32,000 bases of DNA from Candidatus Saccharimonadota bacterium (GTDB taxonomy: Bacteria > Patescibacteriota > Gracilibacteria > BD1-5 > UBA2023): positions 720,001-752,000 of the forward strand of contig OY970170.1 in NCBI GenBank assembly GCA_963706795.1, read 5' to 3'. Under the pieces are notes generated by a model. The model was not told the DNA's origin, searched no databases, and saw only the letters and a list, made by a program, of their open reading frames with translations. Both the position numbers and the translations under genes were made by a program. Positions within the stretch are counted from its first letter, which is position 1, and each line of letters begins with the position of its first letter. Below are positions 6,686 through 31,214 of this stretch, one piece after another.

Positions 6686-6706
6686 TAATTATATAATCTC
6701 ACTACT

Positions 6707-7155: not shown

Positions 7156-7182
7156 AAATGATCCCGCAGTGCGGGATCATTT
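7156..7182. terminator. bidirectional terminator
   Basis: aaatgatcccgc-agt-gcgggatcattt, a 12-bp stem flanked by an A run and a T run. Confidence 0.8.
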
Positions 7183-7185
7183 ATG

Positions 7186-7590
7186 TTAGCAAGGATGCCG
7201 TTCCGAATCCCGAAAATGGGATCGAAATATCCGAAGCTCACAAGTGGTTTCGTATATAAAAACTGCGTTTATTTGTTGGTCTTCCCCCAGATCAATAGTG
7301 AGAATTTTATTTGTATCTTGGAAGACGATGAACACTTTGTAGACGTTGGTATCATCCATGTCTGCATTTGTTTCGAGCATCATCTTTATTGGTTTGTAGA
7401 CCGTGAGCTCGTGCACTTCACTCATATCGATTGGGGCGTTGGTTGTATAGAAAGCCAAGGCTTTCGTTATATGAGCAGCTTCCGTCTCTTCGATATGTGT
7501 TCCATTGCCAACAATAATGCAACCGCCATCAGCAGGATCATAATCAACCAGTGTGACAAATTCTATATCTGGTACTTCCTTTTGGTTCAT
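7186..7590 (-). CDS. hypothetical protein
   Basis: 134-aa ORF with an AAGGAG Shine-Dalgarno 7 nt upstream of the ATG. It ends in TAA and is followed by a terminator. Acidic, no recognised domain. Confidence 0.6.
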   Translation of the reverse strand: MNQKEVPDIEFVTLVDYDPADGGCIIVGNGTHIEETEAAHITKALAFYTTNAPIDMSEVHELTVYKPIKMMLETNADMDDTNVYKVFIVFQDTNKILTIDLGEDQQINAVFIYETTCELRIFRSHFRDSERHPC

Positions 7591-10094: not shown

Positions 10095-10592
10095 TTAAAA
10101 CGTGACGTATCGCTCGTCCGCTAACATTGCTTTGTTTACTTCTGTGTACTTAATTTCTTTAGGAATCGCCGATACCTTGATATTCATATCAAAGTAATCA
10201 ATGGCGATATATTCATCTTCCCTGATATAGCGGAAGAAGCTGCCGATGAATTCTTTTTTCCAGCCGATGTCTTCGCTTTCGAGAAGGGCACCAGTGTGAA
10301 TCAAGATTCCGATGCATTCAAAGCTCGACTTCAAGAGCTTGACTGCATCGTTGAGGGAAAGTGTACGGCCATATGCTTGCATGTATATGGCCATGACGTT
10401 CTTCTCTTCATTACTTCTTTTGGTGCGTGGTTCATCCGAATATGTAAAACAATCCGGATAATCCTGCACTGTCGTGAAGTATTCAGCGAACATCCGACGT
10501 GCCAGTTTGCTTTCAGACGGTAAGTCTTCAGGTATGATGCCTAATTTCCTGAGCTTATCGAGTCCTTCTACTATTGTATAAGACTTTAGCAT
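10095..10592 (-). CDS. hypothetical protein
   Basis: 165-aa intact ORF with an AAGGAG Shine-Dalgarno upstream of ATG 10592 and a TAA stop. No recognised domain. Confidence 0.65.
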   Translation of the reverse strand: MLKSYTIVEGLDKLRKLGIIPEDLPSESKLARRMFAEYFTTVQDYPDCFTYSDEPRTKRSNEEKNVMAIYMQAYGRTLSLNDAVKLLKSSFECIGILIHTGALLESEDIGWKKEFIGSFFRYIREDEYIAIDYFDMNIKVSAIPKEIKYTEVNKAMLADERYVTF

Positions 10593-13294: not shown

Positions 13295-13460
13295 AATTCG
13301 CAGAATAAAAAAATTTTGTCTTCAAAAATTAATAAATAATTAATAATTATGGATATTGTAGGTTGGTAAGGGTCGAGCTTTCAAGGAGGAAGCTCGACCC
13401 TTGCTTTGTGTCTGCACAGCATTCGTGCCAGTCTATACATATTTCTTCTCCTTTTTCTTC

Positions 13461-16400: not shown

Positions 16401-19400
16401 AGTGGAGGAATTGTCGGAGTGATCACATACGAATACGATATCCTCGATCGTCTCGCTAAAAAAACCACGCAGGTAGATGCGACAACATCGCTCGTAACCG
16501 TCATGACTTACGACCCAAATGGCAATATTCTCACAAACAAAGAAGGTTCCGGCGCGACTATCAAATATACCTACGACGCCATGAATCGCGCTACCGAAAA
16601 GCGCATTGTCATGGACCCAAATAATGCTTCGCTCGATATCGTGACAAGCTTTGTATATGACCGTAATGGTAATCAGATAAGAGTGACCGATCCGCTTGGC
16701 AATCAGACGATTTCTAATTTTGATCTCTTCGATCGCCCAATTAAAAAGACCGATCCGACTAGTACATACGCAACCTATTCATATGACAAAATAGGGAATG
16801 TTACTGAGGTTGATGCGTATAGCACAGGCAATACGCTGCTTCAAAAGACGACTTCGCTCTATGACGGACTCGGGCAAAAAATCCAGACGACTGCTTTTGA
16901 TCTCACAAATGCAACGCCCGTAAATATCGTCACAAGCCTCAAGTACGACAAAAATGGACATCCCAAAGAATCCACCGATGCCAAAGGCAACAAAACAACC
17001 ACGACATATGACAGTCTCGGGCGACCATCTCAGATTACAGATGCACTTGGTAACAAAACGACCAGTGCCTACGACAAGCGCAATCTCGTCATCTCAAAGA
17101 GCATCGTCCCAAATACGGGTACAGGTGTCATCACAACCACTTCGCTCTATGACAATGACGGCCGCCTCACTCAAGAGACCAATAATCTTGGGAAGACAAA
17201 AGCCCTGAGCTATAACGCTCTCGGACAGGTAATCAGCGCAAAAGACGAAGAAAATAACATCACCAACTACGCCCGCAATTTTATCGGGAAGCCCACTACA
17301 GAGACTAAATATCTCTCTGGAGGAACGACTGTAGTCACGGGTTACAGTTATGACGAACGTGGCAATCTCACATTGATCACGGACGCAAAAAACAATGCGA
17401 CAGCCTATCAATATGACGCACTCAATCGCACAACCAAAGTCACCTATCCAGACAGCAAAATCCTCGTATCTGTCTATGACAAAAATTCCAATCTCACGAG
17501 CCAAACTGATCCAAATGGGACGGTCGTAGCAAATGTCTATGATCCTCGCAATCTCCTGACCACTAAGACTATCACTACAGGAACGGGGGTCATCGGTATC
17601 ACTTCCGAGGCCTACAGTTATGACGCACTTGGCCGACTCATCTCCGGCAATGACAGCAATCTGAGTAAGCTCGATTTTTCCTATGATAGCCAAGGAAGGC
17701 TCTTGTCTGAGACCAACTCTGGTACAGTGGTCGGGTACAATTATGATGCCAATAACAATCTCACGAAGCTCATCTATCCTGATCTCCGAGAACAGGTCTA
17801 TGGCTACGACGCTCTCAATCGTGCGACAAATATCACCTACAGCGGAGGTACGATTGCCACATATAGCTACAGCGGTATTGTAAATACCGGCATCACCTAC
17901 GGCAATGGAAAAACTGTCGCTCAGACCTTCGATGGGGTATTAAGGCTTCAGTCGCTAAATAATGGGATAAATTCGTATACCTACAGCTATGATGGCGTCT
18001 GAAATATCCTCGCCGACGGACAAAAGAACTACGCCTACGACACCCTCTATCGCCTCACTAATGCGAGCAGCGCACAGAGTGGAACAACCCTCGAATCCTT
18101 TAATTATGACAAAGCCGGCAATCGCACGAGCGATCTTGGGAATGCCTACACGAGCAATGCACTGAACCAATATTTGTCACTCTCAGGAGCCACGAATGTC
18201 GTCTACATCTACGATAATAACGGCAATATCACCGACAACGGCCGATATACATTCCAATACGACTACAAAAACCGTCTCCTCAAAGTAAATTCTGGCAGCA
18301 CCAACATCGACGAATTTACCTACGACATCCTCGGTCGCCGTATCACCAAAAAATCTGGCAACGAAACGACCAAATACGTATTCGCCGACAAAAATATCCT
18401 CACCGAAGCCCGCACCCAAAGTGGCTCAACCACCTTCCACAAAACCTACATCAACGGCCTCGGTACCGACAATCTCCTCGCCTATGACAACGAGGAAGTC
18501 AATCTCTCTCCAAGCGACAAGGAAGAACTCGGTTTCTGCAACACGAATGTTCTCTCTGCAACTGGGAGCTTCATCAAGTATGGCTACCAAAATATCGTAG
18601 ATCGATGTAATACACTCGGTAACTCAGGTTCAACCATCGTCACTAATCGATACTTCTTCCACAAGAATCATCTTGGAAGTGTTGTAGGGCTTACGAATAA
18701 CACATGAGTTCTCGTAGCAGAGTACCAATACGATACCTTCGGAAATCCTTCAGTACGAACATGAACTGGAGTATTCACCAAGGTTACACAAACATCACAG
18801 CTTTCATATGACAATACTCGATTCTTCACTGGGCGAGAATATGACAAAGAAATCGGACTCTATTACCTAAGAGCGAGATTTTATGATCCAACAACTGGAA
18901 GATTCATATCTAGAGATCCTATAGGTCAGAATGATCAGGTGAATCTGTATACGTATGTTGGGAATAATCCGTTAGGGTTTGTGGATTTGATGGGGATGAG
19001 TAGCAAACCGGCTGCTCTTACAGATAAAGAAAGATTTGAAAAGATTTCACAATTCATGCAGAGTAAAACATTTAGAAATTCTCTTTATAAAGAAGGCAAT
19101 ACTCAATCAATAGATTATTTGTGGGTATATTCGTTGCAAATTTCTAATTGAAATGTTCGTGATGCTTTTTCAACTATAAACAGTGCTGTCAGAGGTGTTC
19201 CACAGTATGATGAAGATGAAGTTGCTCAAAGTATTCGCAATTGAGTTATCCCTACTGGTTTAACATGAAAATATGAAGGTGGCGAATATGGCAATAAAGA
19301 TAAACTTCAACATTTCTTTAAGGCAGCTCAAATTTCCTATGTATTATCTGTATCGAATGATGTTGATATAGGGGGTGCAACAGTTGAAATTCTCTGACAA

Positions 19401-19568
19401 GGTAAAGAGATATTTCTAGATGAAATTCCGTATGCTTTCCATATTAAGGATGAGTGATATGATGCAAAGGATATAGACGCGAATAGAACTGGTGCCCAAT
19501 TCGGAAGATATCTAAAGAGGTATGAGAATTCAAGTGGTAATGTTTTACCCTCTTCTATTATTAAATAA
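13461..19568 (+). CDS. RHS/YD-repeat polymorphic toxin, WapA-like (signal peptide, LamG, YD repeats, RHS core, C-terminal toxin CT1)
   Basis: Track ORFs 13401-, 13665-, 15006-, 18174- and 18939- all lie in frame 0 and fuse through 14 TGAs with no TAA/TAG, giving 2035 aa. Signal: MNSLRKKVCAIWMIALIVSSHLSIVEA. Dozens of YD repeats (YxYDxxGNxxxxxD). Core end: RFFTGREYDKEIGLYYLRARFYDPTTGRFISRDPIGQNDQVNLYTYVGNNPLGFVDLMGM. Stop is TAA 19566. Confidence 0.92.
14034..14687 (+). other. LamG / concanavalin-A-like lectin domain of the RHS protein
   Basis: GKWDLNGSPADSSGNGNNAV...FNGTNSYLDAG...ISGWIKS...NQWYHVIFELD...ARFYLDGSLY...GKMALLRFFKREKLSSSEVQSLY matches the LamG_3 pattern. Confidence 0.75.
18641..18998 (+). 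repeat. RHS core 3' homology block, copy A (in the full-length gene)
   Basis: cactaatcgatacttcttccacaagaatcatcttggaagtgttgtagggcttacgaataacacatgagttctcgtagc... recurs at 20040. The first ~75 nt have only a few mismatches; the remainder is clearly homologous but more diverged. Confidence 0.9.
18999..19565 (+). other. CT1: variable C-terminal toxin domain of the full-length RHS protein (function unknown)
   Basis: Begins immediately after the ...VDLMGM core boundary, where similarity to the two downstream cassettes stops abruptly. 189 aa, with 5 in-frame TGAs. Confidence 0.7.
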
Positions 19569-19577
19569 GATGATCTT

Positions 19578-20036
19578 ATGTATAAAAAGTGGCTTGTTGC
19601 AGTTTTAGTTGTGTGGATTTTATTATCTCTTTTGTCGATGATAAATAGCAAATATTTTGTCAGCGATGTCCAGCACACAGAAAGTGTAAATATACTAAAT
19701 AAATCGACAGCAAATATTCAGATTAAGACACCACAGAGCTCCTCCTTTTTATATCCAGGAGAAAAGAGTGCTTTTCAAGTGGATATAAAAAAGTCTATTC
19801 AAGAAAGAATGTTTCAGATTCTAAATAGCAGTGGAGCTGTTATTTTCAGCTATCGGGACTTTGTCAGGCCTGCTAATGATAACGTGACTTGATATGAGGA
19901 GGCTCTAAAGGGAATTTATACCACAGGAAGTCTTTCTGTCCATACAACAGTGAGTCATAAAACAGACGCATACTACTTTCCGTTTTATATACTTAACGAG
20001 ATTATGGAACATGCGATCCATATTGATGTTAATTAA
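19578..20036 (+). CDS. putative immunity protein 1 (N-terminal membrane anchor)
   Basis: Starts 9 nt after the RHS stop. MYKKWLVAVLVVWILLSLLSMI forms a TM helix. One TGA (19890) is read through to TAA 20034. The assignment rests on its position immediately downstream of the toxin tip. Confidence 0.6.
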
Positions 20037-20868
20037 TATCACTAATCGATACTTCTTCCACAAGAATCATCTTGGAAGTGTTGTAGGGCTTACGAATAAC
20101 ACATGAGTTCTCGTAGCGGAGTACCAATACGATACCTTTGGAAATCCCTCTGCTAGATCAGGAAGCGGAGCATTCACAAAGATTACTTCAACTACTTCGA
20201 CACTCTACGACAATACTCGACTCTTCACTGGGCGAGAATATGACAAAGAACTCTCACTCTACTACCTAAGAGCGAGATTCTATGATCCAACAACTGGAAG
20301 ATTCATCTCACGAGATCCGATTGGGCAAAATGACCAGATTAATCTCTATGTATATGTCGGTAATAATCCGATGAGATTTGTGGATTTGATGGGGATGAAG
20401 ACAAAAATAGTCGCGACAATCACAATTTATTCCAGCAATGGATGAGCCTCAAGCGATTGAGATATTAGTGCTTGACATAGTTGGATTGAAATCACAAACA
20501 AGAGTACCAATATAACAATCACTTACTGACTATGGCCTAATAGATGATGAGAGGATGAGCCGAAATGGAAGGCTAAGCCTATCTTTAATGGTATTCAGAC
20601 TAATGGTCCAGAAAAATCGTATACTGAAAATGACTACAAACAAGCCGCATCTTTAACAATGTCACTAAACAAAGATCAATTAAAAGCAGTGAGAAGCAGT
20701 ATAGCAGATCAAATTGTTGACTGAAAGACCTGGGGTAACTTTGCACCTTGCTCAGACTTTGCATCGAATGTATGGAATTCTGTATCTAACAATACACTAG
20801 AAGATAGAAACGATTTTGGTCTAAGTAATCCGACTACTTTATTGAATTCTATTAACTCTTATAAGTAA
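20026..20868 (+). CDS. orphan RHS C-terminal cassette 1 (core fragment + toxin CT2)
   Basis: Homology to 18641-18998 starts at 20040. The frame is open back to ATG 20026, overlapping the immunity-1 stop. Peptide: (M)LINITNRYFFHKNHLGSVVGLTNNT[G]VLVAEYQYD...NNPMRFVDLMGM, followed by an unrelated 156-aa tip with 7 TGAs. Stop is TAA 20866. Confidence 0.8.
20040..20397 (+). repeat. RHS core 3' homology block, copy B
   Basis: Collinear with 18641-18998 and the same length (358 nt). Confidence 0.9.
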
Positions 20869-20873
20869 TTAAT

Positions 20874-21248
20874 ATGAAAAAATTCCTCACTATTCTGCTG
20901 GTAGCAATAGCATTATGATTAGTTATTTTCATATATGCTAAATATTTCTGGAAAGGCTCTTATATCCAAAATGGATGACAGAATATAAGAGTGCAATTAC
21001 GCTCTAGTGATGTAGAGTTTACTGTATCACCTATATCTTCTGCAAACTGAATAACTGCCATAGATACAAGATTAGATATCTCTAAGCGTAAAATTTATGT
21101 ATGGTATTATGCCAAATTTGTCAGTTTATTGAGTGGGCAAGGAGATTGAGGTAATACTCACATAAATATACCTGGAGAATATACTGTTATTTATTTAAAT
21201 CCTGATGGCACGGAACAGTTCATACAGACTATTTCTATAGAAAAATAG
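20874..21248 (+). CDS. putative immunity protein 2 (N-terminal membrane anchor)
   Basis: ATG sits 5 nt after the CT2 stop. MKKFLTILLVAIAL[G]LVIFIYAKYFW forms a TM helix. 124 aa, 4 in-frame TGAs, TAG stop at 21246. Confidence 0.6.
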
Positions 21249-21251
21249 TCA

Positions 21252-22079
21252 GATCCCTCTGTAAGATCAGGCACTGGAACATTCACAAAGATTACTCCAA
21301 CTACTTCGCCACTCTACGACAACAGTCGACTCTTTACTGGACGAGAATATGACAAAGAAATCGGACTCTACTACCTAAGAGCGAGATTCTATGATCCAAC
21401 AACTGGTCGATTTATATCACGAGATCCGATTGGGCAAAATGACCAGATTAATCTCTATGTCTATGTTGGGAATAATCCGTTAGGGTTTGTGGATTTGATG
21501 GGAAGAGAAAGTAAACCAGTGGTGCAGGTTTTTAGTAATGCAAAGAATGATATAAGTAAATTTCATGAAAACTTAGCACTACTAAGATCTAATACTAGCT
21601 GAAAGATGCAGACGATATTGGATAAACTATATCTTCCTTACAATGTAGACGAACCAAGTTCAAGGCCACTTGTTTATGCATATTATTTTAATTTAGAATA
21701 TCATGGCACAGTGCGCGGTGTTACTGGTGAGGGAAAGTATGATTTAGCACTTGGACAAAATGGCTGAGTGAATGCTATGTCATCTTATACGGCTGACGAT
21801 ATGTTTAATATACGTTGAACAAAAATTCCAGTAGCACAAGTTTCCAATGTTCTGACGGCTTTGAATGCATACCGCTTAGGTATTTCTGAAGATGAGCTTA
21901 AGACTGGTGCTATGGCAACGGTAGTTGCTTGAGGAGGGAATGGTATAAAATGAGAGATAAAAGACCATATTCTTTATGATGCAGGATATCAACTCGGTGA
22001 ACTTGAGAGATCGGGTGTATTAACAGATGAGATTCTTCTTCAGAAGCTTATTGATGCATCTCAAAAACGAGGTGACTAA
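21252..22079 (+). CDS. orphan RHS C-terminal cassette 2 (shorter core fragment + toxin CT3), no start codon at its 5' boundary
   Basis: Homology (atccctct..agatcagg...) starts at 21253, matching 20144 and 18745. It is in frame with immunity 2, directly after that gene's TAG. Peptide: ...FTGREYDKEIGLYYLRARFYDPTTGRFISRDPIGQNDQINLYVYVGNNPLGFVDLMG, then a unique 191-aa tip with 5 TGAs. The first in-frame GTG/TTG/ATG are at 21489-21498. Stop is TAA 22077. Confidence 0.75.
21253..21503 (+). repeat. RHS core 3' homology block, copy C (5'-truncated)
   Basis: Collinear with 18745-18995 and 20144-20394. Confidence 0.9.
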
Positions 22080-22105
22080 CTCAATATTTCTTATCTTAGA
22101 TTGCT

Positions 22106-22639
22106 ATGAAACTTATCTATATCCTATTTGCGCTTGTTTCTGTATTTGGATACTTCTTGTATTTCAATGACGACTACAGCTTTGAGAAAAATAAGAAGCA
22201 AATTATAAATGATAGCGTTATAAGAATAGCAAGTGCACACGCTGAAATTGATATTCACTGAGATCAATTTCAGAAGGCTTTATTATTGCTACATAAGAAT
22301 TCAGTGAGTTTTTTAAGTTTTACAGGTACGGGTGCTATCGAGTATCAAGCAAATGATAATATGTATTCATTAGGCCAAGGACCTTTGACGAAGGATGAAA
22401 TATCCTCAATACAAGATTTGTATTCTCAGGCTCACATTGATCAAATCTATAGCAGAGATAACTTGGATACTTATTTCATAAAAGCACCTAAATTAGAAAT
22501 TTCTTTTGTATACTCGATTAAAGAAAGAAATTTCTATCCTACAGAAAAGGTAGGATACTGATTTATTATTGATGAGTATAAAAATTGGTGAATCCTGCAA
22601 TCATGTACTCGTAATACATGTCAAGAATGACAAAAATAG
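22106..22639 (+). CDS. putative immunity protein 3 (N-terminal membrane anchor)
   Basis: MKLIYILFALVSVFGYFLYF forms a TM helix. Track ORF 22286-22561 is extended in both directions through 4 TGAs. 177 aa, TAG stop at 22637. Confidence 0.6.
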
Positions 22640-22663
22640 ATTAACCTTAACTACCTACTAACT

Positions 22664-23902
22664 ATGAAAAAACAGAATTTCCTCATTGCAGGATCCTCCC
22701 TTTTTCTTCTCTTCTGAGTATTTATTTCCAGTCCTCTTATATCCAACATTGTCCATGCGGAAGATACTCCAGTGACAACAGTTACTGCGGGTGGTATTCG
22801 TGTGCCAAATATACCAAAAGATCGCACAAAAAAGGGGCCCATGGTCATGGATTTTATATCTTTGCTTAAAGCAGGGAAATATACGGAGGGGCTTGCAGTA
22901 TATAGGGAGGCTATCAAAATAGCAGATCACCCAGAATTCCTCACGGGTGAAATGTTTATTGATAAAAAGATTGTTACACGACTGGCGAGTCTGAACAAGA
23001 AGCTAGAAGTTGCTAAAACAGCTACTAGCAAGAGCAATCTGCTCATTTTGCAAGGAAATGCTCGTTACGATGCATGAAACTATCTCTACTATCGTGACAG
23101 ACAAAAATATAGCTTGGTGGTACTCTATCAGTACCTGCTTGCAGTGGAGGCATTTGATAAATCCATCCTTATTACTGATAACTCTATAGCTCACAGGCAG
23201 AAATGAATCGTTATGAATGATCTTGGTTGATCAGAGGATCTGGCTATATCAGAGCTACAAAAAGCAATCGCAATGGATCCTTCAGACGACCGTGCCTTTT
23301 ATAGATTAGGGAATCTCTATTGAAAAAAGAAACAGTATGATCTTGCTATCTCATCCTATCTAAAATCTTTGTCTATTAATGGAAGTAATGAGCTTTCCTA
23401 TCTAAATCTTTGAGCTGCTTACAGTAATGCTTGAGAGGATGCTAAAGCTTATCAAGCCTATAATGATATGCTGAAGATATGTAAAGGCTATTGCCATGTT
23501 GCGGAATATAATATTTGAAGTCAGAAAATGTTTGAAGAAAAATACGATGAAGCTATCGAGTATATTGATCTTGCAATTAAACATGCAGCAGATAAGTGAG
23601 TAGTTTATAGGAATGCTTACCTTTTAAAGTGAACTATGTTTCAACTTCACTTTCGACCTCAAGAAGCATTAACAAATCTCAAAATGGCCGTGAATGATCC
23701 GAAGGAAATAAATACTGATGATAATAATCATAGTATATGTGATTATCCGGCTAGAGTGCATGCAAGAATTGCAGCAGCATATTTTGATCTTGGTGATCTT
23801 GAAAATTCTAAAAAGGAAATGAATATCAGTATCTCTATGGAGTCAGACGATCCGGAAACCAAACACATCATTGAGGTATGGAAGTCAAAAATGGGGCAAT
23901 AA
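22664..23902 (+). CDS. secreted TPR-repeat protein
   Basis: MKKQNFLIAGSSLFLLF[G]VFISSPLISNIVHA is a signal peptide. Track ORFs 22772-23077 and 23636-23902 join through 10 TGAs. TPR-like units: AFYRLGNLY[G]KKKQYDLAISSYLKSL and YLNL[G]AAYSNA[G]EDAKAYQAY. Confidence 0.75.
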
Positions 23903-23973
23903 GTTTACGTATCAATTGCTAAATTTATCGACATGAAATTGCATTAATTAATTCAATCTCCTCAGATCCTTTT

Positions 23974-24417
23974 ATGCGTATTCTCAAGAAGATATTTGTA
24001 TGGATTGTATGTCTTTGTTGTGGGTTATATGCGCTTATGACAGCGGATCTATTTTTCGGAGGTAAACTTTGAATGATCTATACATGATTATATTTGCTAC
24101 AATTGAGTGAGCGGCACTACGTAAATAGAATGTCTTCAGAGTATGAAGAGTACTTTAGGAAGTATATCCGTGGGGTCACCATTTCTGAATGGAAACTCTC
24201 TGATTTCCCTCGTGATGGTGAAATACAAATCTCAAGTTTCACTGCATCATGATCGAACTTAATACTTGTTTGAGGCAATCGCTTCTTACTTCTACATACC
24301 AAAGATGCTCACATTCTAAATGATGTAATAGATTTATCTTTTGTTACTAGGGTTTTAGATTCAAATTGGTTTGTTCTTGCTCCCTGCACGCGACTTTTTT
24401 GTCAGCTCGAGAAGTAG
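23974..24417 (+). CDS. small membrane-anchored protein (immunity-like architecture)
   Basis: Invisible in the standard-code track. ATG 23974 to TAG 24415 is open with 4 TGAs. MRILKKIFVWIVCLCCGLYALM forms a TM helix, followed by a ~115-aa domain. Confidence 0.55.
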
Positions 24418-24470
24418 GACTTACAGACAGTTGTTGTGAGATTTTCATTTAAAATAGCTTTCAATTTCTC

Positions 24471-24938
24471 ATGCAAAAACATATTTTATCGATCTTCTTG
24501 CCTATCGCTTGAGCGTTCATTCTTGTCCTAGCTGTTTTTGGTTATTTAGGCTGGTTTCCTGTATATAGTAACTTTGTCGGTAATACACAACAGTACAATG
24601 ATTTAGTAAGACTTATCCATGCTACTAATACAAAGGAATTTATATACGCTAATAAACCAGGATTTTGCGAGGATTGAAATTGTGATAAATGAACAATTGA
24701 TAAGATATTGTCTGCAATGGATAATCTCAAAATCGAGAGTATTGATAGTCGAGAAAAGGATACATACTGAATTATCTTTTATCTCAAAAAGGGTTGGTGG
24801 ACAAACAATCCTGCAATTTACCGATATAAAAAGGATAATTTTGGAGATACTGATGTTCATTGATGAGATGCAAAGAGAGCATGAACCGAAATTATTGAAA
24901 AGTATAACAATAGCTGGGTGCAACTAGATTGGCGTTAA
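24471..24938 (+). CDS. small membrane-anchored protein (immunity-like architecture)
   Basis: ATG 24471 to TAA 24936 is open with 7 TGAs, including a TGA-TGA pair. MQKHILSIFLPIA[G]AFILVLAVFGYLGWF forms a TM helix. Confidence 0.55.
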
Positions 24939-24980
24939 TTCACTCATAGCCTTTTAGTAAGTAGCGATTCTTTCAGGAAA

Positions 24981-25364
24981 ATGCCCACCATCTTCTTCAT
25001 CCATCTCCTCCTCATAATTGCCTGCACAGCGATCCTCGATTTTGTGTTCACGAAAAAGATTTCGACACAAAATCTCTGGATCGCCTGTATGGCTTTTGCG
25101 AGTTTTTGGATTATGGGGCTGTTTTTGTATTTGTCGATTGGGATCAGGATTGTGCGGTCGGCTGCGGCGTTATATATTTTCCCTGCGATGTTTTTGTTGT
25201 CGCTGTTTGTGAGTCCGTATCTGATTGCGCGACTTAAGAGGTCGCTTGCTTCGCAGAAAGGGAATGTTAGCTGACTCTTTATGGCGGTGAATTATGTTCT
25301 TGCTTTGCTGGGGCCGATCATCTTGTTTTTTATTGCGGTCCGGATCGATGAATCCCTTAGGTAG
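24981..25364 (+). CDS. small multipass membrane protein
   Basis: Track ORF 24981-25274 extended through TGA 25272 to TAG 25362. 127 aa, almost entirely hydrophobic segments. Confidence 0.6.
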
Positions 25365-25376
25365 TGAACTGTATTT

Positions 25377-25404
25377 TTGACATAGTTTTTACTGTCCGTA
25401 AACT
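25377..25404 (+). promoter_or_regulatory. promoter of paralog unit 1 (TTGACA-N16-TAAACT)
   Basis: TTGACA at 25377-25382 and TAAACT at 25399-25404. The same architecture and the same GTAAACTC core recur at units 2 and 3. Confidence 0.7.
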
Positions 25405-25456
25405 CACGCCAGCTTTTTTAAAGCATCAAACCAAAACCCATAGAAGGAGGTGTATC

Positions 25457-26164
25457 ATGGAAGTAACAGATCGAAATGTATGCCAGACTCTCAGGGATAC
25501 GTATGGACTTCGTAGTCTCCCACCTGATGTGGTACAGGTGTATCTAGAGAAACATCAATATGATGGCTTCAGTCAAAATGTACAAGCACGTCACAAAGCG
25601 ATATGGTGGTCGTTGTTCATTGTATTGAATCTCGCTGCGATCGTTCAGAGCTATATATTCGGTACGAGCATCAGTGGTTGGTTCAACATAATGACTTTGA
25701 TTGTTTCGTTCGCAAATATGTATCTCGTTGCTAATCTTCTTCGGATTATCTTTGGCGTTCACAGCTTTCATAAGGAGATGGAAGCTGCACAAGATACATC
25801 GAAGGTGATCGCGAAGTATTCAAATGAAGAGAAAGGATATGACTTGTTACGTCTCTCGTTTGAGTATCAGTGGGTATGTTACGAAGATCTCTCAAACTTC
25901 ACCATTGTTACTCTGCGCTGTCGGATCATATTTTGTATCATCCTGCTTTTAATGGGGTATGTAGAACATACTGTAATTCTCGTATTCTTGTTTGTAATAA
26001 CCGGCTTTGGCCAATGGTATGCGCAAACCAAAATTCATTCATACCTCTCGGCTCTGGCTCATTTCTATAATGACCCAACGAAGTGATACATACTGGTTGT
26101 TTCGCAAATATTTCCCTCTTTGGCGCCAGAATTTTGGCGTCTTTTTTGTGCTTCAAAATATTAA
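25457..26164 (+). CDS. 4-TM paralog family protein, copy 1 (function unknown)
   Basis: GGAGGTGTATC-ATG context. No internal TGA. N-terminal motif LRDTYGL and C-terminal motif QTKIHSYLSAL are shared with copies 2 and 3. The standard-code ORF ends at TGA 26084-26086. Under code 25 the first stop is TAA 26162, beyond the terminator. Confidence 0.65.
26122..26147 (+). terminator. terminator of unit 1
   Basis: ggcgcca-gaattt-tggcgtc hairpin followed by T6. Confidence 0.8.
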
Positions 26165-26175
26165 AAACCCATTAT

Positions 26176-26203
26176 TTGACATAAACAATCGTACATGTAA
26201 ACT
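26176..26203 (+). promoter_or_regulatory. promoter of paralog unit 2 (TTGACA-N16-TAAACT)
   Basis: TTGACA at 26176-26181 and TAAACT at 26198-26203. Confidence 0.7.
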
Positions 26204-26271
26204 CCGACGCAGTCTTCCAGGCAATGCACTGGATCACATACATCAAATCATACAAATACAGGAGGTGTATT

Positions 26272-26988
26272 ATGGAAAATCTTCCAGAAGATGTACCGCG
26301 GATGTTGCGTGAGAGGTATGGCAAATACTTCCCATTATCGGAAGAAATGGTCGTGGCTTATGAAAATAGACGAGGGACGAACGAGCTCATTTTAACAACG
26401 TTGCTGTGGGTAATGATTCTGCTCGTTGGTGTGCCAATTATGTTCGCATATTGGCAGTCACATGATCAGAATTTTGCTCGATTTCTTGCTATTCTGGCCG
26501 TAGTCTCGGTCATTCCATATGTGAGAGCTATCACTCTCATGGAGGGAATCAGGGAGGATGTAGAGTTATTCAACAATACGATTGCGGGTATTGATGAAAA
26601 AGAGCGTGCTCGGATGATTCAGAGTCACTTTATTGAATCAACTACGCCTGAATTACTCGAAGGTTGCTTCAAATTTGAGTGGATCAAGTATTCAAGCCCG
26701 CTTCTCTATGTTCGTCTAGCGCTTCAGTTGCTGTTCTGCATTATTCTTGCAACAGTACAGCAATGGGAATTTAGCATATTCCTCATAGCAGCGCTTGCTC
26801 TGCATGCCTATTACAAAATAGAAGCGCAGGGGCAAATTCATAAATATTTACAAAACCTACTCGACTTCAAGAACCATCCGATGCATGAGTGGTACTGAAT
26901 GTTGGGGGTATCGCATTGGGGGCACCGAGAAATCGGTGCCTTTTTTATGACTCACTCATGCGGTTGACATATATTTTCCACTTCGTAA
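26272..26988 (+). CDS. 4-TM paralog family protein, copy 2 (function unknown)
   Basis: AGGAGGTGTATT-ATG context. No internal TGA. Motifs LRERYGK and QGQIHKYLQNL. The standard-code ORF ends at TGA 26896-26898. Under code 25 the first stop is the TAA inside the -10 box of unit 3 (26986). Confidence 0.65.
26921..26946 (+). terminator. terminator of unit 2
   Basis: ggcaccga-GAAA-tcggtgcc, a perfect 8-bp stem with a GNRA loop, followed by T6. Confidence 0.85.
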
Positions 26989-26991
26989 ACT
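26964..26991 (+). promoter_or_regulatory. promoter of paralog unit 3 (TTGACA-N16-TAAACT)
   Basis: TTGACA at 26964-26969 and TAAACT at 26986-26991. Confidence 0.7.
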
Positions 26992-27068
26992 CTGATCAGT
27001 TTTCCGATTCGGTTGAGCTGGATTACCAAATCTGATTCATATCAAAACACAGAGAATGGAGGTATATC

Positions 27069-27683
27069 ATGTACAGCAAGCAAAACATTAATTCGTGTTT
27101 AGCTCATACGTATGGTCTGCAGGAACCATTGTCACCAGGTCTTATTGCTACATATAACAAAAAAGTCGTGGGCATTCCTGAGCTGGCATCATTTGCCTTT
27201 TGGCTTGTCTTGGGAATGGTGAGTGCCTCCTGTATCATCTTTTATGTTGATATAAAAGATCTCATGATTGGCTTTGGAGTCGTTGTTATTATCCTTAATG
27301 CTCATCCCATAAGGAGTATCCGTTGTACAACATCCGAGATCCATAGTCTTGCTATGCAGATGAGCGGTACTGAAGGTGAGCTGAGATCTCGCATACTCGA
27401 ACGACATCTCGATCAATCGAATGCTCAGTATTTGCTTGAGAGATGTTTTAGATATCAACATCTCTGTATTTGGCCAAAATTAGCGCTGTTGCGCTATGCA
27501 TGCTGTGCAATCTTTTACGGGGCGCTTCTATTCCAGGGGCAATACTGGCTCGCTGTTGGAGTGATTGCATCAGGCTTAGTAAGCATGTACCAAATAAGCA
27601 AAGCACAAGAGTACATTCAGTGGTACTTGCTGCAACTTATGGAAAAGGCGGGCGTGAAGTTTTTGATTATATGGCAAGTGTAA
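27069..27683 (+). CDS. 4-TM paralog family protein, copy 3 (function unknown)
   Basis: TGGAGGTATATC-ATG context. 204 aa, no internal TGA. Motifs LAHTYGL and KAQEYIQWYLLQL. It ends in a genuine TAA upstream of its terminator. Confidence 0.75.
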   Translation: MYSKQNINSCLAHTYGLQEPLSPGLIATYNKKVVGIPELASFAFWLVLGMVSASCIIFYVDIKDLMIGFGVVVIILNAHPIRSIRCTTSEIHSLAMQMSGTEGELRSRILERHLDQSNAQYLLERCFRYQHLCIWPKLALLRYACCAIFYGALLFQGQYWLAVGVIASGLVSMYQISKAQEYIQWYLLQLMEKAGVKFLIIWQV

Positions 27684-27706
27684 CTGACTGAATGCATCAA
27701 TAATCT

Positions 27707-27732
27707 GGCACCGAGAAATCGGTGTCTTTTTT
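27707..27732 (+). terminator. terminator of unit 3
   Basis: ggcaccga-GAAA-tcggtgtc followed by T6. 18 nt are identical to the unit 2 terminator. Confidence 0.85.
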
Positions 27733-27740
27733 ATGGCGTA

Positions 27741-27770
27741 AAAAAGATCCACATGACATGGATCTTTTGA
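27741..27770 (-). terminator. rho-independent terminator for the minus-strand membrane protein
   Basis: Minus strand reads aaaagatcca...tggatctttt and then further T. It lies directly after the TAA at 27772-27774. Confidence 0.75.
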
Positions 27771-27771
27771 T

Positions 27772-29097
27772 TTATGCTTTTTTCTTCGCCGTCTTCTTTT
27801 TTGTGACAGCTTTTTTCTTTGGTACATCTTCTTTTACTTCCTCTTTTTTCTCTTCAACAACTACTGGTGGTTTATTACTTGGACGTAGCTTTTTTGGTTT
27901 TGCCTCTGTCATTTCTCAAATCACTGTTGCTGGCTTACGAAGTATTCCAAATATGGAGAAATAAACCATGACCATCGCGCCTTCTGTGATCAAAAACCCG
28001 AGGAAGGTGAAGATGGATTCTATTTTCCATGCATCTGGATCGACGGCACTGTTATCGAGATATGGGAAGATGGCTTCGAGATATTGTGGATCAACACCAT
28101 CGGTTTTTGGATTGAATGCGTTGTTGATAGCGATGATACGCGCAATGTCTGTTTCGTTCAGCGCAAAGGCATTGAGGAAATGGTGCTTGATATATGAGTG
28201 ATCATCGACGAAGGTTTTTGGATCGGCTTTGGCGATTGCATTAATTGCGGTTTCTGCCCGTCCGATGAGGATTTTGTTACCAGTTCCTGTGATAAATCCG
28301 CCAACTGTTCCGATGATTGCAAGGAATGGGAGGATCAAAAAGAGCATCTTAAAGATCTTGCCCTTTGTGAGTGCGAGCGAATCTGTTACAAAGCTTCGGG
28401 CAGTCTTGGCCTTGTTTTCTTTATCCAAGAGCATCATATATCCGAATGTCATGCGGATCGCAAGAAGTGTCATCCATACGACACACACAACAAATCCAAC
28501 GAGCGAAATCCCGCCAAGGATCAACGAATGTGTCTGGTTACCTGGATTGAGTAGACCAAAATGCGTTGCCAGGAAGAGTACAAAAAGGATGGTGATCCCA
28601 GTCACGATCGGAGGCAAAACATAGAGCGAAGTCCACCCAAGAATCCCGAGGAACTTTTGGAGATGATAGCGCGAGAAAAACAGATTTTTAAAAATCGGGA
28701 GCTTCGTTCCTGCGAGGTAACTCTCATAGAGTTTGATCTCCAAAAAGTATGCATAAGTGAGTGTAAATCCAAAGATCGCAATAATCTTTACAAACAAAAT
28801 TCCCACACCGAGCAATATCCATGAATGCCCCATCAGTGCACCAAGAAGCCCATTATCAATACTTCCAGAAGTCGTAAAGAGTGAGAGCGAAGCCTCAGGT
28901 ACGGGACTGAGCACCACATATCCAGCCCAAACGATCAGTCCAATCGCCGGAAGAGAAAGAATTGTCGCGAAAACAAAGGCGTATGCCCAAATCACGATCT
29001 TGCTCGCATTCCAATGAAAGAAGTTTTTGTAGAGCAACGAAATATTTCGCATGATCAGTGTCAGCGAGAGCCAGTAGGTGTTGAGAATGGATTTCAT
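27772..29097 (-). CDS. multipass membrane protein with Lys/Glu-rich C-terminal tail
   Basis: Track ORF 27916-29106, with ATG at 29097 preferred over TTG 29106. The terminal TGA (tca at 27916-27918) is read as Gly and extends the protein by 47 aa: EMTEAKPKKLRPSNKPPVVVEEKKEEVKEDVPKKKAVTKKKTAKKKA. It then ends at TAA followed by a terminator. It has multiple long hydrophobic segments; no family recognised. Confidence 0.7.
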
Positions 29098-29420: not shown

Positions 29421-31214
29421 ATGCACAGATCTCATACCTGTGGTGAACTTACCACTGCTCACATTGGGCAAACCGTTACCCTCTCTGGTTGGGTGACAAA
29501 CCGCCGCGACCACGGAGGAGTCGTGTTTATCGATATGCGTGACCGCTACGGTATTACTCAGACAGTCTATGATCCAGCTGATGGTGCAGCAGATGGTACG
29601 ATGGAACTCGCACAGTCATACCGCGCTGAATACGTAGTTAAGATCACCGGACTCGTTCGCGCTCGCCCAGTTGGTCAGGAAAACGACAAACTCGTTACTG
29701 GTGGTATCGAGATCGCCGTGATGCAGGCAGAGATTCTTTCAGAGTCTAAGCTCCCTCCGTTTGAGATCGATACACACTCTCAGGCCAATGAAGAAGTACG
29801 TCTCAAACACCGCTACCTCGACCTTCGCCGTAAGCCAGTTCTCGAAACGATCGAATTCCGAGCTCGAATGAACCGATTCACACGAGACTGGTTCAGCGAC
29901 CGAGGATTCCTCGAGGTTCAGACTCCGATTTTCACGGCGTCATCTCCAGAAGGGGCTCGTGACTTCCTCATCCCATCACGACTTCATCACGGGAAATTCT
30001 ACGCGCTTCCACAGGCTCCACAGCAGTACAAGCAGCTCCTCATGGTGGGTGGGGTAGATAAGTATTTTCAGATTGCGCCGTGTTTCCGAGACGAAGATCC
30101 ACGCGCAGATCGACACTCGTGTGAATTCTACCAGATCGACTGTGAGATGAGTTTTGTAGAACAGGAAGACGTGTTTGCAGTGGCTGAACCATTCGCACTC
30201 GACCTCGTTACGACGATGACTCCACACAAGCACGTGAAGGCTGCGAAGTTCCCACGATATACGCATACAGAGGCGCTCGATCTTTTTGGATCAGATAAGC
30301 CAGATGTACGATTTGATATGCACTTTGAGGAGCTCAGTGAGGATTTCCGAGATTCTGGATTCTCAGTGTTCGCAGCAGCCGTTGCAGAAGGCGGAGTGGT
30401 GAAAGCGATGAAATACGAAGGATCAAAAGGGAAGGGGATCATGAGTCGATCTGAGATCGATGCACTCACAGCAACTGCTCAGGCAGAAGGAGCAAAGGGA
30501 CTCGCCTACATCATCTACGAAGCAGAAGGTCCACGCTCTCCGATCCTCAAGTTCTTCACGGGAGGTGAACTCGCAGCACTCGAGGCACGTTTTGCACCAC
30601 AGCCAGGAGATATGATCTTCTTCGGAGCTGGTGAGCGAAAACTCGTGAACAAGGTTCTCGGGAAGGTGCGTCTCGCGATGCGCGATACGTTCGATCTCGT
30701 AGACAAGAACGAACTCGCATTCGCTTGGATTACGGATTTCCCAATGTACGAGCTCAAGGACGATGGATCATACGACTTTGAACACAACCCATTCTCTATG
30801 CCACACGGCGGAGCAGCAGCGTTCAACGAAGGTGTTGACCCACTCTCGATCTACGGTTGTCAGTATGACCTCGCATGTAACGGGTACGAAGTCCTCTCAG
30901 GATCTATCCGCAACCACAATATCGCAGCACTCGTGAAGGCATTCGAGATCGTAGGAAAGGGAGAAGAAGAAGTGAAGGCAAAGTTCGGTGCGGTGTACAA
31001 TGCATTTCAGTACGGAGTTCCTCCACACGGAGGATTCGCGTTTGGATTCGACCGACTCCTCATGATCCTCAAGGATGAGACCAACATCCGTGAAATCTAC
31101 GCATTCCCAAAATCTGGAAAGGCCGAAGACACGATGATGGAAGCTCCAGCCGAGATCGACGACAAGCAACTCCGCGAACTCCACATCAAGGTGCGAGAGC
31201 ATCACGGAAAATAA
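29421..31214 (+). CDS. aspS: aspartate--tRNA ligase (bacterial type)
   Basis: MHRSHTCGELT...GWV..RRDHGGVVFIDMRDRYG (OB-fold N-terminal domain). Class II motifs: FRDEDPRADR and GGFAFGFDRLLM. 597 aa from ATG 29421, no in-frame TGA, TAA stop. Confidence 0.95.
   Translation: MHRSHTCGELTTAHIGQTVTLSGWVTNRRDHGGVVFIDMRDRYGITQTVYDPADGAADGTMELAQSYRAEYVVKITGLVRARPVGQENDKLVTGGIEIAVMQAEILSESKLPPFEIDTHSQANEEVRLKHRYLDLRRKPVLETIEFRARMNRFTRDWFSDRGFLEVQTPIFTASSPEGARDFLIPSRLHHGKFYALPQAPQQYKQLLMVGGVDKYFQIAPCFRDEDPRADRHSCEFYQIDCEMSFVEQEDVFAVAEPFALDLVTTMTPHKHVKAAKFPRYTHTEALDLFGSDKPDVRFDMHFEELSEDFRDSGFSVFAAAVAEGGVVKAMKYEGSKGKGIMSRSEIDALTATAQAEGAKGLAYIIYEAEGPRSPILKFFTGGELAALEARFAPQPGDMIFFGAGERKLVNKVLGKVRLAMRDTFDLVDKNELAFAWITDFPMYELKDDGSYDFEHNPFSMPHGGAAAFNEGVDPLSIYGCQYDLACNGYEVLSGSIRNHNIAALVKAFEIVGKGEEEVKAKFGAVYNAFQYGVPPHGGFAFGFDRLLMILKDETNIREIYAFPKSGKAEDTMMEAPAEIDDKQLRELHIKVREHHGK

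What the first reader, a model, noticed from the sequence alone, without database searches (positions are those of the whole stretch)
26084..26988. Code conflict: paralogs 1 and 2 'end' at TGA just before their terminators, and under code 25 the next stop lies beyond the terminator
Copy 3 ends in TAA (27681) 23 nt before its terminator, as expected.

Copies 1 and 2 have TGA at the equivalent place (26084 and 26896). With TGA=Gly, translation would run through the terminator hairpins (26122-26147 and 26921-26946). It would stop only at TAA 26162 for copy 1, and for copy 2 at the TAA inside the next unit's -10 box (26986).

If the terminators work, these mRNAs lack an in-frame stop and are non-stop messages.

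Elsewhere in the window the same test supports read-through. In marR, relE and the membrane protein at 27772, a terminal TGA is followed by a real TAA before the terminator.

The three paralogs also contain 29 glycines and not one TGA, unlike their TGA-rich upstream neighbours.

Possible explanations:
- recent acquisition from a standard-code donor
- context-dependent termination at TGA
- deliberate production of non-stop or extended products
Basis: partly seen in the sequence, partly recalled or inferred. Interest (0 to 1): 0.7.

Follow-up and report, generated by a model that had tools for sequence, protein, structure and literature searches.

The report
Standard-code-style gene array in UGA=Gly genome
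Three tandem copies of an otherwise unknown membrane-protein gene sit in a bacterium that reads TGA as glycine; two of them still "end" in TGA, so their reading frames run through their own transcription terminators, which most likely marks the block as imported DNA written in the standard code.

Summary
The window comes from a Gracilibacterium that reads TGA as Gly. At 25377-27732 lie three tandem units of about 800 bp. Each has a TTGACA-N16-TAAACT promoter, an AGGAGGTG ribosome-binding site, a gene of about 205 codons for a four-helix membrane protein, and a hairpin+T6 terminator. Units 1 and 2 have TGA where unit 3 has TAA, and their next TAA lies 14 and 37 nt beyond the T tract.

This geometry is rare. 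It appeared in none of 110 conserved, terminator-bearing genes in about 1 Mb of related code-25 DNA, and in about 2 of 140 terminator-linked gene ends overall. The two extension peptides are unrelated, and the hairpins are read in different frames.

The "no internal TGA" argument is weak. Host genes of similar GC3 use TGA for only 6% of Gly codons, giving P about 0.18.

A stronger sign of foreignness is the perfect Shine-Dalgarno sites in a lineage that hardly uses them (at most 3 of 107 genes). Codon usage is also poorly adapted, and the array lies in an accessory island next to an RHS toxin locus.

The family has no homologue among about 15 billion proteins, so the orthologue test cannot be done.

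Best reading: a cassette array written in the standard code, whose TGA stops are now read through. Programmed non-stop expression or residual UGA termination is not excluded but has no support.

The parts
25377..25404 (+). Promoter-like site of unit 1 (TTGACA-N16-TAAACT)
   Evidence: the exact pattern occurs 3 times in the window, once before each unit, against 0.07 expected by chance.
25445..25452 (+). Shine-Dalgarno site AGGAGGTG of unit 1, 4 nt before the ATG
   Evidence: (repeat family D4). SD motifs are nearly absent from other genes of this lineage.
25457..26086 (+). Paralog 1: 209 codons, ending in TGA at 26084-86 (Gly under code 25)
   Evidence: It is stored as the 209-aa protein P0002 in public collections. 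No Pfam, PHROG or PADLOC match.
26087..26164 (+). Read-through extension of paralog 1 under code 25 (YILVVSQIFPSLAPEFWRLFCASKY, then TAA 26162-64)
   Evidence: It is not similar to the extension of paralog 2.
26122..26147 (+). Intrinsic-terminator-like hairpin (8 bp, loop 4) plus T6 of unit 1, lying inside the extension
   Evidence: -10.7 kcal/mol.
26176..26203 (+). Promoter-like site of unit 2
26260..26267 (+). Shine-Dalgarno site AGGAGGTG of unit 2
26272..26898 (+). Paralog 2: 208 codons, ending in TGA at 26896-98
   Evidence: (P0001).
26899..26988 (+). Read-through extension of paralog 2 (MLGVSHWGHREIGAFFMTHSCG-G-HIFSTS). It holds a second in-frame TGA at 26965-67 and ends at TAA 26986-88.
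26921..26946 (+). Hairpin GGCACCGAGAAATCGGTGCC plus T6 of unit 2, inside the extension
   Evidence: -16.8 kcal/mol. It differs from the hairpin of unit 3 at 1 of 20 bases.
26964..26991 (+). Promoter-like site of unit 3. It overlaps the end of the extension of paralog 2.
27057..27064 (+). Shine-Dalgarno site TGGAGGTA of unit 3
27069..27683 (+). Paralog 3: 204 codons, ending in TAA at 27681-83
   Evidence: (P0003).
27707..27732 (+). Hairpin plus T6 of unit 3, 23 nt after the TAA
   Evidence: -12.0 kcal/mol.
27742..27768 (.). Hairpin that ends the convergent membrane-protein gene (27772-29097, minus strand). It marks the right edge of the array.
   Evidence: That gene is syntenic with aspS in relatives, and its tail beyond an in-frame TGA is conserved.

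Best explanation
The block 25377-27732 is a three-unit tandem array of a lineage-unique gene for a four-helix membrane protein. Its punctuation and expression signals were shaped where TGA is a stop codon. The likely source is a standard-code bacterium, or the largely "code-11-compatible" mobile gene pool of Gracilibacteria. The array now sits in an accessory island of a UGA=Gly genome.

In this host the TGA of units 1 and 2 is decoded as Gly (inferred). Ribosomes therefore run on into the terminator hairpin. Two outcomes are possible. If the terminator fires first, the message has no stop codon and must be rescued, which lowers the protein yield. If the ribosome suppresses the hairpin, transcription continues and a 26- or 30-residue unselected tail is added. 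Only unit 3 is correctly punctuated.

What is shown: the geometry, the code, the rarity of the geometry, the atypical SD sites and codon usage, the ORFan status and the island context. What is inferred: the foreign origin and the fate of the messages and proteins.
For: 1. Stop-equivalent positions. After the conserved AQxxIxxYLxxL motif the tails are 9, 12 and 14 residues if TGA counts as an end, against 35, 42 and 14 under code 25. The spacers from TGA/TGA/TAA to the hairpin are 35, 22 and 23 nt, which is the normal stop-to-terminator spacing of this genome (TAA/TAG 7-30 nt upstream).
2. The extensions are not protein-like relatives. The two peptides are unrelated, and the hairpins are read from codon positions 3, 2 and 3. 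Open runs of 26-30 codons are expected by chance (P about 0.3).
3. Rarity in native genes. The geometry occurs in 0 of 110 conserved genes with terminators and about 2 of 140 terminator-linked gene ends. P(at least 2 of 3) is about 6e-4.
4. Foreign-looking expression signals. All three units have AGGAGGTG-type SD sites. GGAG/GAGG lies upstream of only 3 of 107 and 0 of 113 confirmed genes in code-25 loci and of almost none of the other window genes. The exact TTGACA-N16-TAAACT pattern occurs 3 times against 0.07 expected.
5. Codon usage. RSCU correlation with host genes is 0.57, against 0.61-0.90 for host genes or gene chunks of similar size. Mean log2 relative synonymous frequency is -0.004, against +0.09 to +0.22.
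6. Island context. Relatives have the flanking genes g10925 and aspS about 1.7 kb apart. Here about 16 kb lie between them, holding the RHS locus and the array.
7. TGA really is sense here, and prfB has not been found in any BD1-5 genome (PMC6851277).
8. Precedent. Most predicted Gracilibacteria phages avoid in-frame TGA and remain code-11 compatible (PMC10746230).
Against: - No donor or homologue was found anywhere: 5.8e9 clusters, 1.84e9 representatives, genome, viral, phage and plasmid collections. A well-sampled standard-code donor should have left relatives.
- The G+C of the array (0.41-0.43) equals that of the window (0.42).
- The absence of internal TGA is not significant against host genes of similar GC3 (P = 0.18).
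- TGA to TAA is a single transition, so persistence of both TGAs means the overrun is recent, harmless or useful.
- Two apparently SD-less small genes in the closest relatives (L001/L002 genes A and B) and an S8-peptidase-like gene in L036 also end in TGA. Native genes can therefore acquire or tolerate this state.
- No mobile-element hallmarks flank the array.
Confidence: 0.6

Rival explanations
1. The genes are native, and the stop codons drifted. In a small-population episymbiont, TAA-to-TGA transitions at the stops of weakly constrained accessory genes became fixed because the extensions are harmless.
For: TGA-terminal, non-conserved, frame-shifted extensions occur in the apparently native, SD-less genes A and B of L001/L002 and in an L036 peptidase-like gene. 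TGA density is about twice as high in codons 11-40 before the stop as in gene bodies in the higher-GC clade. The G+C of the array equals the host's, and the family is lineage-specific.
Against: It needs two independent events in a three-gene family against a background of about 1-1.5%. It does not explain three perfect SD sites in an SD-less lineage or the poorly adapted codon usage.
Confidence: 0.17
2. The arrangement is functional. Reading UGA as Gly drives ribosomes into terminators 1 and 2. Then either translation suppresses termination and links the three units into one transcript that ends at the properly punctuated unit 3, or non-stop messages are made on purpose so that ribosome-rescue capacity sets the protein output, as with arfA.
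For: The two internal units have TGA and the last unit has TAA. The hairpins are strong and their sequence is kept. Both TGAs persist although a single transition would restore TAA.
Against: Each unit has its own equally good promoter, so coupling is not needed. The extensions and hairpin reading frames are not conserved between units. The long open runs are what chance gives. There is no comparative support because there are no orthologues.
Confidence: 0.1
3. UGA still ends translation in some contexts in this clade, for example near a transcript 3' end, so copies 1 and 2 terminate normally.
For: In L001/L002, conservation of genes A and B stops exactly at TGA, and the downstream frames differ between the two species. 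In the array, TGA sits at positions equivalent to a stop.
Against: L001 and L002 are only about 14% diverged in this region, so TGA conservation there is weak evidence. Across 889 prematurely ending homology segments, TGA is not enriched at the end of homology (8.8%, similar to GGA at 9.1%). In-frame TGA is plainly sense in neighbouring genes. RF2 is reported absent from BD1-5 genomes. The terminal TGAs share no sequence context.
Confidence: 0.05
4. It is an artefact: an assembly chimera or contaminating standard-code DNA, or base-call errors at the two stop codons.
For: The block looks like standard-code DNA and has no relatives.
Against: Code-25 genes flank it on both sides within a few hundred bases: 24981-25364 has an in-frame TGA, and the syntenic membrane gene lies at 27772-29097. 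The source contig is 1.27 Mb. Two identical A-to-G errors exactly at stop codons are improbable.
Confidence: 0.03

Closest known systems
Code-11-compatible phages and mobile DNA of Gracilibacteria/Absconditabacteria (Liu et al. 2023, PMC10746230)
   Same: Genes that reside in, or target, a UGA=Gly host, contain no in-frame TGA and may use TGA as a terminal codon.
   Different: In those phages a TGA stop is backed up by a nearby TAA/TAG. Here the next stops are 26 and 30 codons away, beyond the intrinsic terminator. There are no phage hallmark genes and no PHROG hits. The block is chromosomal.
arfA-type programmed non-stop mRNA (E. coli; from my own knowledge, not tested here)
   Same: An ORF that runs through a hairpin, which truncates the transcript. 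The message then lacks a stop codon and its product depends on ribosome rescue.
   Different: No sequence or structural relation to ArfA. Here the proteins are 205-residue membrane proteins. The arrangement is not conserved in any orthologue, and it arises from a change in codon meaning rather than from a dedicated design.
Horizontally acquired genes with unameliorated signals in accessory islands
   Same: Atypical codon usage and atypical translation-initiation signals, ORFan status, and a position inside an insertion relative to relatives.
   Different: What remains unameliorated is the stop codon itself. The host's genetic code, not only its codon bias, differs from the one in which the genes were written.
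Orphan immunity-gene arrays downstream of RHS/polymorphic toxin loci
   Same: Tandem, highly diverged small paralogs (about 23% identity) at the distal end of an RHS toxin island.
   Different: The genes do not directly follow toxin tips. Each has its own promoter and terminator. There is no match to any immunity or defence family, and base composition and TGA use differ sharply from the adjacent toxin/immunity cassettes.

Membership tests
Genetic code 25 genome (UGA = Gly; Gracilibacteria/BD1-5) | In-frame TGA at conserved glycine positions of conserved proteins | tested here: met
   TGA falls at WGHGG and LLGGKL positions of the beta-lactamase-family protein, at GxSxG of the hydrolase, at a conserved MarR Gly, and at an aspS position in L003/L004 that aligns to Gly in 30-33 loci.
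Genetic code 25 genome (UGA = Gly; Gracilibacteria/BD1-5) | Phylogenetic placement in Gracilibacteria | tested here: met
   aspS is 72-89% identical to records titled Candidatus Gracilibacteria or Patescibacteria.
Genetic code 25 genome (UGA = Gly; Gracilibacteria/BD1-5) | Loss of prfB (RF2) and presence of tRNA-Gly(UCA) | not testable with these tools
   There is no tRNA in the window, and the rest of the 1.27-Mb genome could not be fetched. The literature reports prfB absent from BD1-5 genomes.
Intrinsic (Rho-independent) terminator | G+C-rich stem-loop directly followed by a U tract, downstream of a gene | tested here: met
   Each has an 8-bp stem, a 4-nt loop and T6. Energies are -10.7, -16.8 and -12.0 kcal/mol.
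Intrinsic (Rho-independent) terminator | Actual transcript 3' ends at the U tract | not testable with these tools
   This needs Term-seq or 3' RACE.
Code-11-compatible mobile DNA of code-25 hosts (Liu et al. 2023) | No in-frame TGA within genes | tested here: met
   No TGA in 621 codons. This alone is not significant (P = 0.18).
Code-11-compatible mobile DNA of code-25 hosts (Liu et al. 2023) | A terminal TGA backed up by a nearby TAA/TAG | tested here: not met
   The next TAA is 26 and 30 codons downstream, beyond the terminator.
Code-11-compatible mobile DNA of code-25 hosts (Liu et al. 2023) | Phage or mobile-element hallmark genes or boundaries | tested here: not met
   No PHROG hit below E = 0.03. 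No match in viral, phage or plasmid collections. No flanking repeats.
arfA-like programmed non-stop message | The ORF continues through a transcript-truncating hairpin with no in-frame stop before it | tested here: met
   This holds only under code 25.
arfA-like programmed non-stop message | The arrangement is conserved in orthologues, or the protein is homologous to ArfA | tested here: not met
   No orthologues exist in any collection. There is no Pfam hit. The paralogs' extensions are unrelated.
RHS-associated immunity gene | Lies immediately downstream of a toxin C-terminal tip, or matches an immunity family | tested here: not met
   The array is separated from the last RHS-type tip by several genes, has its own promoters, and has no family match. 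The fold search gave nothing (model pLDDT 68.6).

The most novel reading that the evidence does not exclude
In this Gracilibacteria clade, a terminal UGA followed by an intrinsic terminator may be a working way to end a gene. The end of the transcript, together with ribosome rescue or some unknown UGA-dependent release, would define the C-terminus. Alternatively, ribosome entry into the hairpin would tune terminator read-through between the three units. UGA would then have kept a position-dependent, stop-like role in a bacterium that otherwise reads it as glycine.
Probability: 0.08. Interest if true: 0.85.

Novelty: new variant of a known kind. Interest (0 to 1): 0.42.

Why it matters
Genetic-code change is often described as a barrier to gene flow. 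This locus is a concrete natural example of what happens when genes punctuated for the standard code sit in a UGA=Gly cell. The stop is lost, the reading frame runs into the intrinsic terminator, and the message is predicted to lack a stop codon.

It gives a small, well-defined test case for three questions: how code-25 bacteria handle such imports, how quickly stops are repaired, and whether ribosome rescue buffers transfer between codes. It also flags a practical annotation problem. Under table 25 these genes are called with spurious tails that overlap terminators and the next promoter. Under table 11 they are called correctly but their neighbours are fragmented.

Tried and rejected
**Searches for relatives.**
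- Homologues of the three paralogs were sought with a profile against 5.8e9 clusters and 1.84e9 representatives. They were also sought in GTDB genomes, 80 related loci, IMG/VR, GenBank phages and PLSDB plasmids. Only the three proteins themselves were found.
- Exact-protein look-ups to fetch the source genome failed.
- A metagenome and viral scan for the terminator sequence found two unrelated contigs with the same hairpin. This is convergence, not homology.

**Searches for function.**
- Pfam, PHROGs, PADLOC, Rfam and an AlphaFold model with a PDB fold search gave no assignment.

**Ideas tested and dropped.**
- General use of TGA as a stop in Gracilibacteria is rejected. TGA is not enriched where homology ends, and none of 110 conserved genes show the geometry.
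- Most "overrun" hits of the terminator-anchored survey were off-frame or antisense ORFs.
- The terminal TGAs conserved between L001 and L002 looked striking at first. The two records are 86% identical in that region, so the conservation carries little weight.
- The last two homology searches showed that L002 gene A and the SD-led window ORF 10095-10592 are also ORFans, so they gave no donor either.
Full report
**1. The observation**

Reading 24800-28600 confirms every coordinate of the finding.
- Paralog 1 runs from ATG 25457 to TGA 26084-86. An 8-bp hairpin (26122-26141) with T6 follows, and the next in-frame TAA/TAG is TAA 26162-64, 14 nt past the T tract.
- Paralog 2 runs from ATG 26272 to TGA 26896-98. 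Its hairpin is 26921-26940 plus T6. A second in-frame TGA (26965-67) lies in the next unit's -35 box, and TAA 26986-88 lies in its -10 box.
- Paralog 3 runs from ATG 27069 to TAA 27681-83, 23 nt before its hairpin (27707-26).

The hairpins form in the predicted folds. They score -10.7, -16.8 and -12.0 kcal/mol in my terminator scan. The glycine count is right: 29 GGN codons and no TGA.

**2. The genetic code and the organism**

With TAA/TAG as the only stops, fragmented ORFs fuse into long genes. One example is a 2056-codon RHS protein with 14 in-frame TGAs.

TGA aligns with invariant Gly in solved relatives of a beta-lactamase-family protein, at WGHGG and LLGGKL. It occupies the second Gly of the GxSxG nucleophile elbow of a hydrolase and a conserved Gly of MarR. 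TGA never aligned with Trp.

aspS (29421-31214) is 72-89% identical to Gracilibacteria MAGs. Relatives carry TGA at aspS positions that are Gly in 30 or more other loci. The window is therefore from a code-25 Gracilibacterium. Public protein collections place the paralogs on a 1,267,896-bp contig. Sieber et al. report prfB absent from all BD1-5 genomes (PMC6851277).

**3. Anatomy of the locus**

The three proteins are 23% identical to paralog 1. They share a layout of two hydrophobic hairpins around a helical segment of about 50 residues, plus N- and C-terminal motifs.

The DNA around them is better conserved than the genes.
- An exact TTGACA-N16-TAAACT precedes each unit: 3 matches against 0.07 expected.
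- Each unit has an AGGAGGTGTAT(C/T)ATG start region.
- Hairpins 2 and 3 differ at 1 of 20 bases.
- The unit period is 799 and 786 nt.

Each unit is thus an independent promoter, SD, ORF and terminator cassette. No Rfam family matches.

**4. Is TGA the "intended" end?**

After the shared AQxxIxxYLxxL motif the tails are 9, 12 and 14 residues if TGA counts as an end. Under code 25 they are 35, 42 and 14.

The spacers from TGA/TGA/TAA to the hairpin are 35, 22 and 23 nt. That is the normal spacing in this genome, where other genes have TAA/TAG 7-30 nt before their hairpins.

The two extension peptides are unrelated. The hairpins start at codon positions 3, 2 and 3, so nothing beyond the TGA behaves as coding sequence. 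Open runs of 26 and 30 codons without TAA/TAG have a chance probability of about 0.3 at this base composition. No back-up stop was therefore selected for or against.

**5. How unusual is the geometry?**

I extracted ORFs from 69 code-25 loci (0.99 Mb). I kept 414 genes confirmed by homology in at least two other loci and scanned their ends.
- 107 have a hairpin+T tract within 100 nt after TAA/TAG.
- 3 have a hairpin starting before the stop. None of these has an upstream in-frame TGA that fits this geometry.

A terminator-anchored survey that does not require conservation found 323 terminators and 138 regular gene ends. After inspection, only two credible TGA-then-hairpin overruns remained outside the array. 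They are gene B of L001 and an S8-peptidase-like ORF in L036. The rest were off-frame or antisense ORFs.

With a background of about 2 in 140, two of three in one family has P of about 6e-4.

**6.

TGA's share of Gly codons tracks GC3.
- Host genes with GC3 of at least 0.40 use TGA for 24 of 415 Gly codons (5.8%). This group includes aspS (0/49), g10925 (1/46) and the membrane gene (1/31).
- The low-GC RHS cassette block upstream uses it for 43 of 117 (37%).

The paralogs have GC3 of 0.44-0.46, so 0 of 29 has P = 0.18 against the relevant background.

**7. Evidence on origin**

*Shine-Dalgarno sites.* Among confirmed genes with an estimated ATG, GGAG/GAGG occurs at -18..-4 in 3 of 107 genes (higher-GC loci) and 0 of 113 genes (low-GC loci). 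Almost no other window gene has one. A scan for strong SD, a 4-9 nt spacer, ATG and an ORF found few cases in about 1 Mb of relatives but five in this window. They are the three paralogs plus two other TGA-free ORFs, 10095-10592(-) and 7186-7590(-).

*Codon usage.* The paralogs correlate with host genes at r = 0.57, against 0.61-0.90 for host genes or RHS chunks of similar size. Their mean log2 relative synonymous frequency is -0.004, against +0.09 to +0.22.

*Context.* In many relatives g10925 lies about 1.7 kb upstream of aspS. Here about 16 kb intervene, holding the RHS toxin locus, its orphan tips and the array. The convergent membrane gene at 27772-29097 is syntenic with aspS in some relatives, and its Lys-rich tail beyond an in-frame TGA is conserved. 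The array therefore ends at about 27740.

*No donor.* No homologue exists in 5.8e9 clusters, in 1.84e9 representatives read exhaustively by HMMER, or in the GTDB, IMG/VR, phage and plasmid collections. The SD-led ORF 10095-10592 is an ORFan too. This argues against a well-sampled donor. It fits the poorly sampled mobile gene pool of Gracilibacteria, much of which is reported to avoid in-frame TGA and stay code-11 compatible (PMC10746230). In that pool, however, terminal TGAs have close back-up stops. These genes do not.

**8. A lead that tempers the conclusion**

The two closest relatives are L001 and L002. Both use code 25. Each has two small genes just upstream of aspS.

Gene A ends ...ELTY-TGA. 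After that the DNA diverges, with indels of 6 and 10 nt. As a result A would be fused in frame to B in L001 but would run 52 codons out of frame in L002.

Gene B ends ...V-TGA 19-20 nt before a hairpin+T6. The stems differ by compensatory changes (GCTCCGAGAAATCGGAGC against GCCCCGCGAAAGCGGGGC). A 1-nt indel lies between the TGA and the hairpin.

Terminal TGA with a junk extension therefore recurs in this clade, in genes that show no recognisable SD. The two records are 86% identical in this region, so conservation of the TGA itself proves little. Gene A is also an ORFan.

A global test found no enrichment of TGA where homology ends (8.8%, against 9.1% for GGA). TGA density is about twice as high in codons 11-40 before the stop in the higher-GC clade. 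That level is close to the expectation for unconstrained sequence.

**9. Mechanism**

*Shown:* under the host's code, units 1 and 2 have no stop before their terminators.

*Inferred:* ribosomes decode UGA as Gly and enter the hairpin. If transcription and translation are tightly coupled, the ribosome masks the 5' arm and weakens termination. Transcripts then run into the next unit, and the proteins gain 26- or 30-residue tails. If the two processes are uncoupled, RNA polymerase terminates at about 26148 and 26948. The messages then lack a stop and must be resolved by ribosome rescue, which would normally lower the yield. Unit 3 is unaffected.

I rate the standard-code-written, unrepaired cassette reading at 0.6. 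The rivals are native drift (0.17), a functional coupling or non-stop design (0.10), residual UGA termination (0.05) and artefact (0.03).

**10. Comparison, novelty and verdict**

The closest described phenomenon is the code-11-compatible DNA of Gracilibacteria phages. The array meets the "no in-frame TGA" criterion but fails the "nearby back-up stop" and "phage hallmark" criteria.

It resembles arfA-type non-stop messages in geometry only. It is not a demonstrable RHS immunity array.

I class it as a new variant of a known kind: horizontally acquired, unameliorated genes in which the unameliorated feature is the stop codon itself.

Interest is moderate (0.42). The conflict is real and statistically unusual, and it makes the cost of gene transfer between genetic codes experimentally approachable. 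No new mechanism is demonstrated, and the comparative test is blocked because the family has no known relatives.

Noticed in passing
window 13401-24938: There is an RHS/YD-repeat polymorphic toxin gene (13401-19568; Pfam RHS_repeat). It is followed by an orphan C-terminal tip (20011-20868) that repeats the RHS core end (NRYFFHKNHLGSVVGL...DPIGQNDQ.NLY), small putative immunity ORFs and a TPR protein (22664-23902). This block is low in GC (0.31-0.38) and uses TGA for 37% of Gly codons, against 6% in the higher-GC genes.
   Followed up: partly
window 13300-27740, compared with L005, L006, L008, L014, L020 and others: In many related Gracilibacteria the orthologue of g10925 lies about 1.7-2.5 kb upstream of aspS. 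In the window about 16 kb (the RHS locus plus the paralog array) lie between them. This is an accessory island.
   Followed up: partly
69 code-25 loci; window 10095-10592(-) and 7186-7590(-): Gracilibacteria genes are almost free of Shine-Dalgarno sites: GGAG/GAGG lies upstream of 3 of 107 and 0 of 113 confirmed genes. The window holds two further SD-led, TGA-free ORFs that end at terminators. The one at 10095-10592 is unique to this genome in a search of 5.8e9 protein clusters.
   Followed up: partly
L001 145-661 and L002 9353-9886: Two small genes just upstream of aspS in the two closest relatives both end in TGA. Their extensions are not conserved and are frame-shifted: gene A is fused to gene B in L001 but out of frame in L002. 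Gene B's terminator hairpin shows compensatory stem changes between the two genomes.
   Followed up: yes
L036, minus strand, ORF L036|-|1|811 (hairpin at offsets 753-779, 0-based on the reverse-complemented locus): An S8-peptidase-like ORF in a distant low-GC Gracilibacterium has TGA at the expected C-terminus, 20 nt before a -16.5 kcal/mol hairpin. There is no TAA/TAG until after the T tract.
   Followed up: partly
window 6689-7153: A MarR-family regulator has one TGA at a conserved Gly (AQK-G-YI) and a second TGA two codons before its TAA. A bidirectional hairpin (7157-7181) serves this gene and the convergent ORF.
   Followed up: partly
window 24981-25364: A small membrane-protein ORF lies directly upstream of the array. 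It has no SD. An in-frame TGA at 25272-74 is followed by 29 codons that look like a genuine extra transmembrane helix (LFMAVNYVLALLGPIILFFIAV), so read-through there seems functional.
   Followed up: no
window 29421-31214: aspS has no TGA among 597 codons (49 Gly). Orthologues in L003 and L004 each have one TGA, at a conserved Gly position.
   Followed up: partly
L081 2407-2432 and L082 754-779: The exact hairpin GGCACCGAGAAATCGGTGCC plus T6 occurs in two unrelated metagenome contigs. One appears to use the standard code at 42% GC and the other has 55% GC. Neither shares any other similarity with the window, so this looks like convergence on a GNRA-loop terminator.
   Followed up: partly
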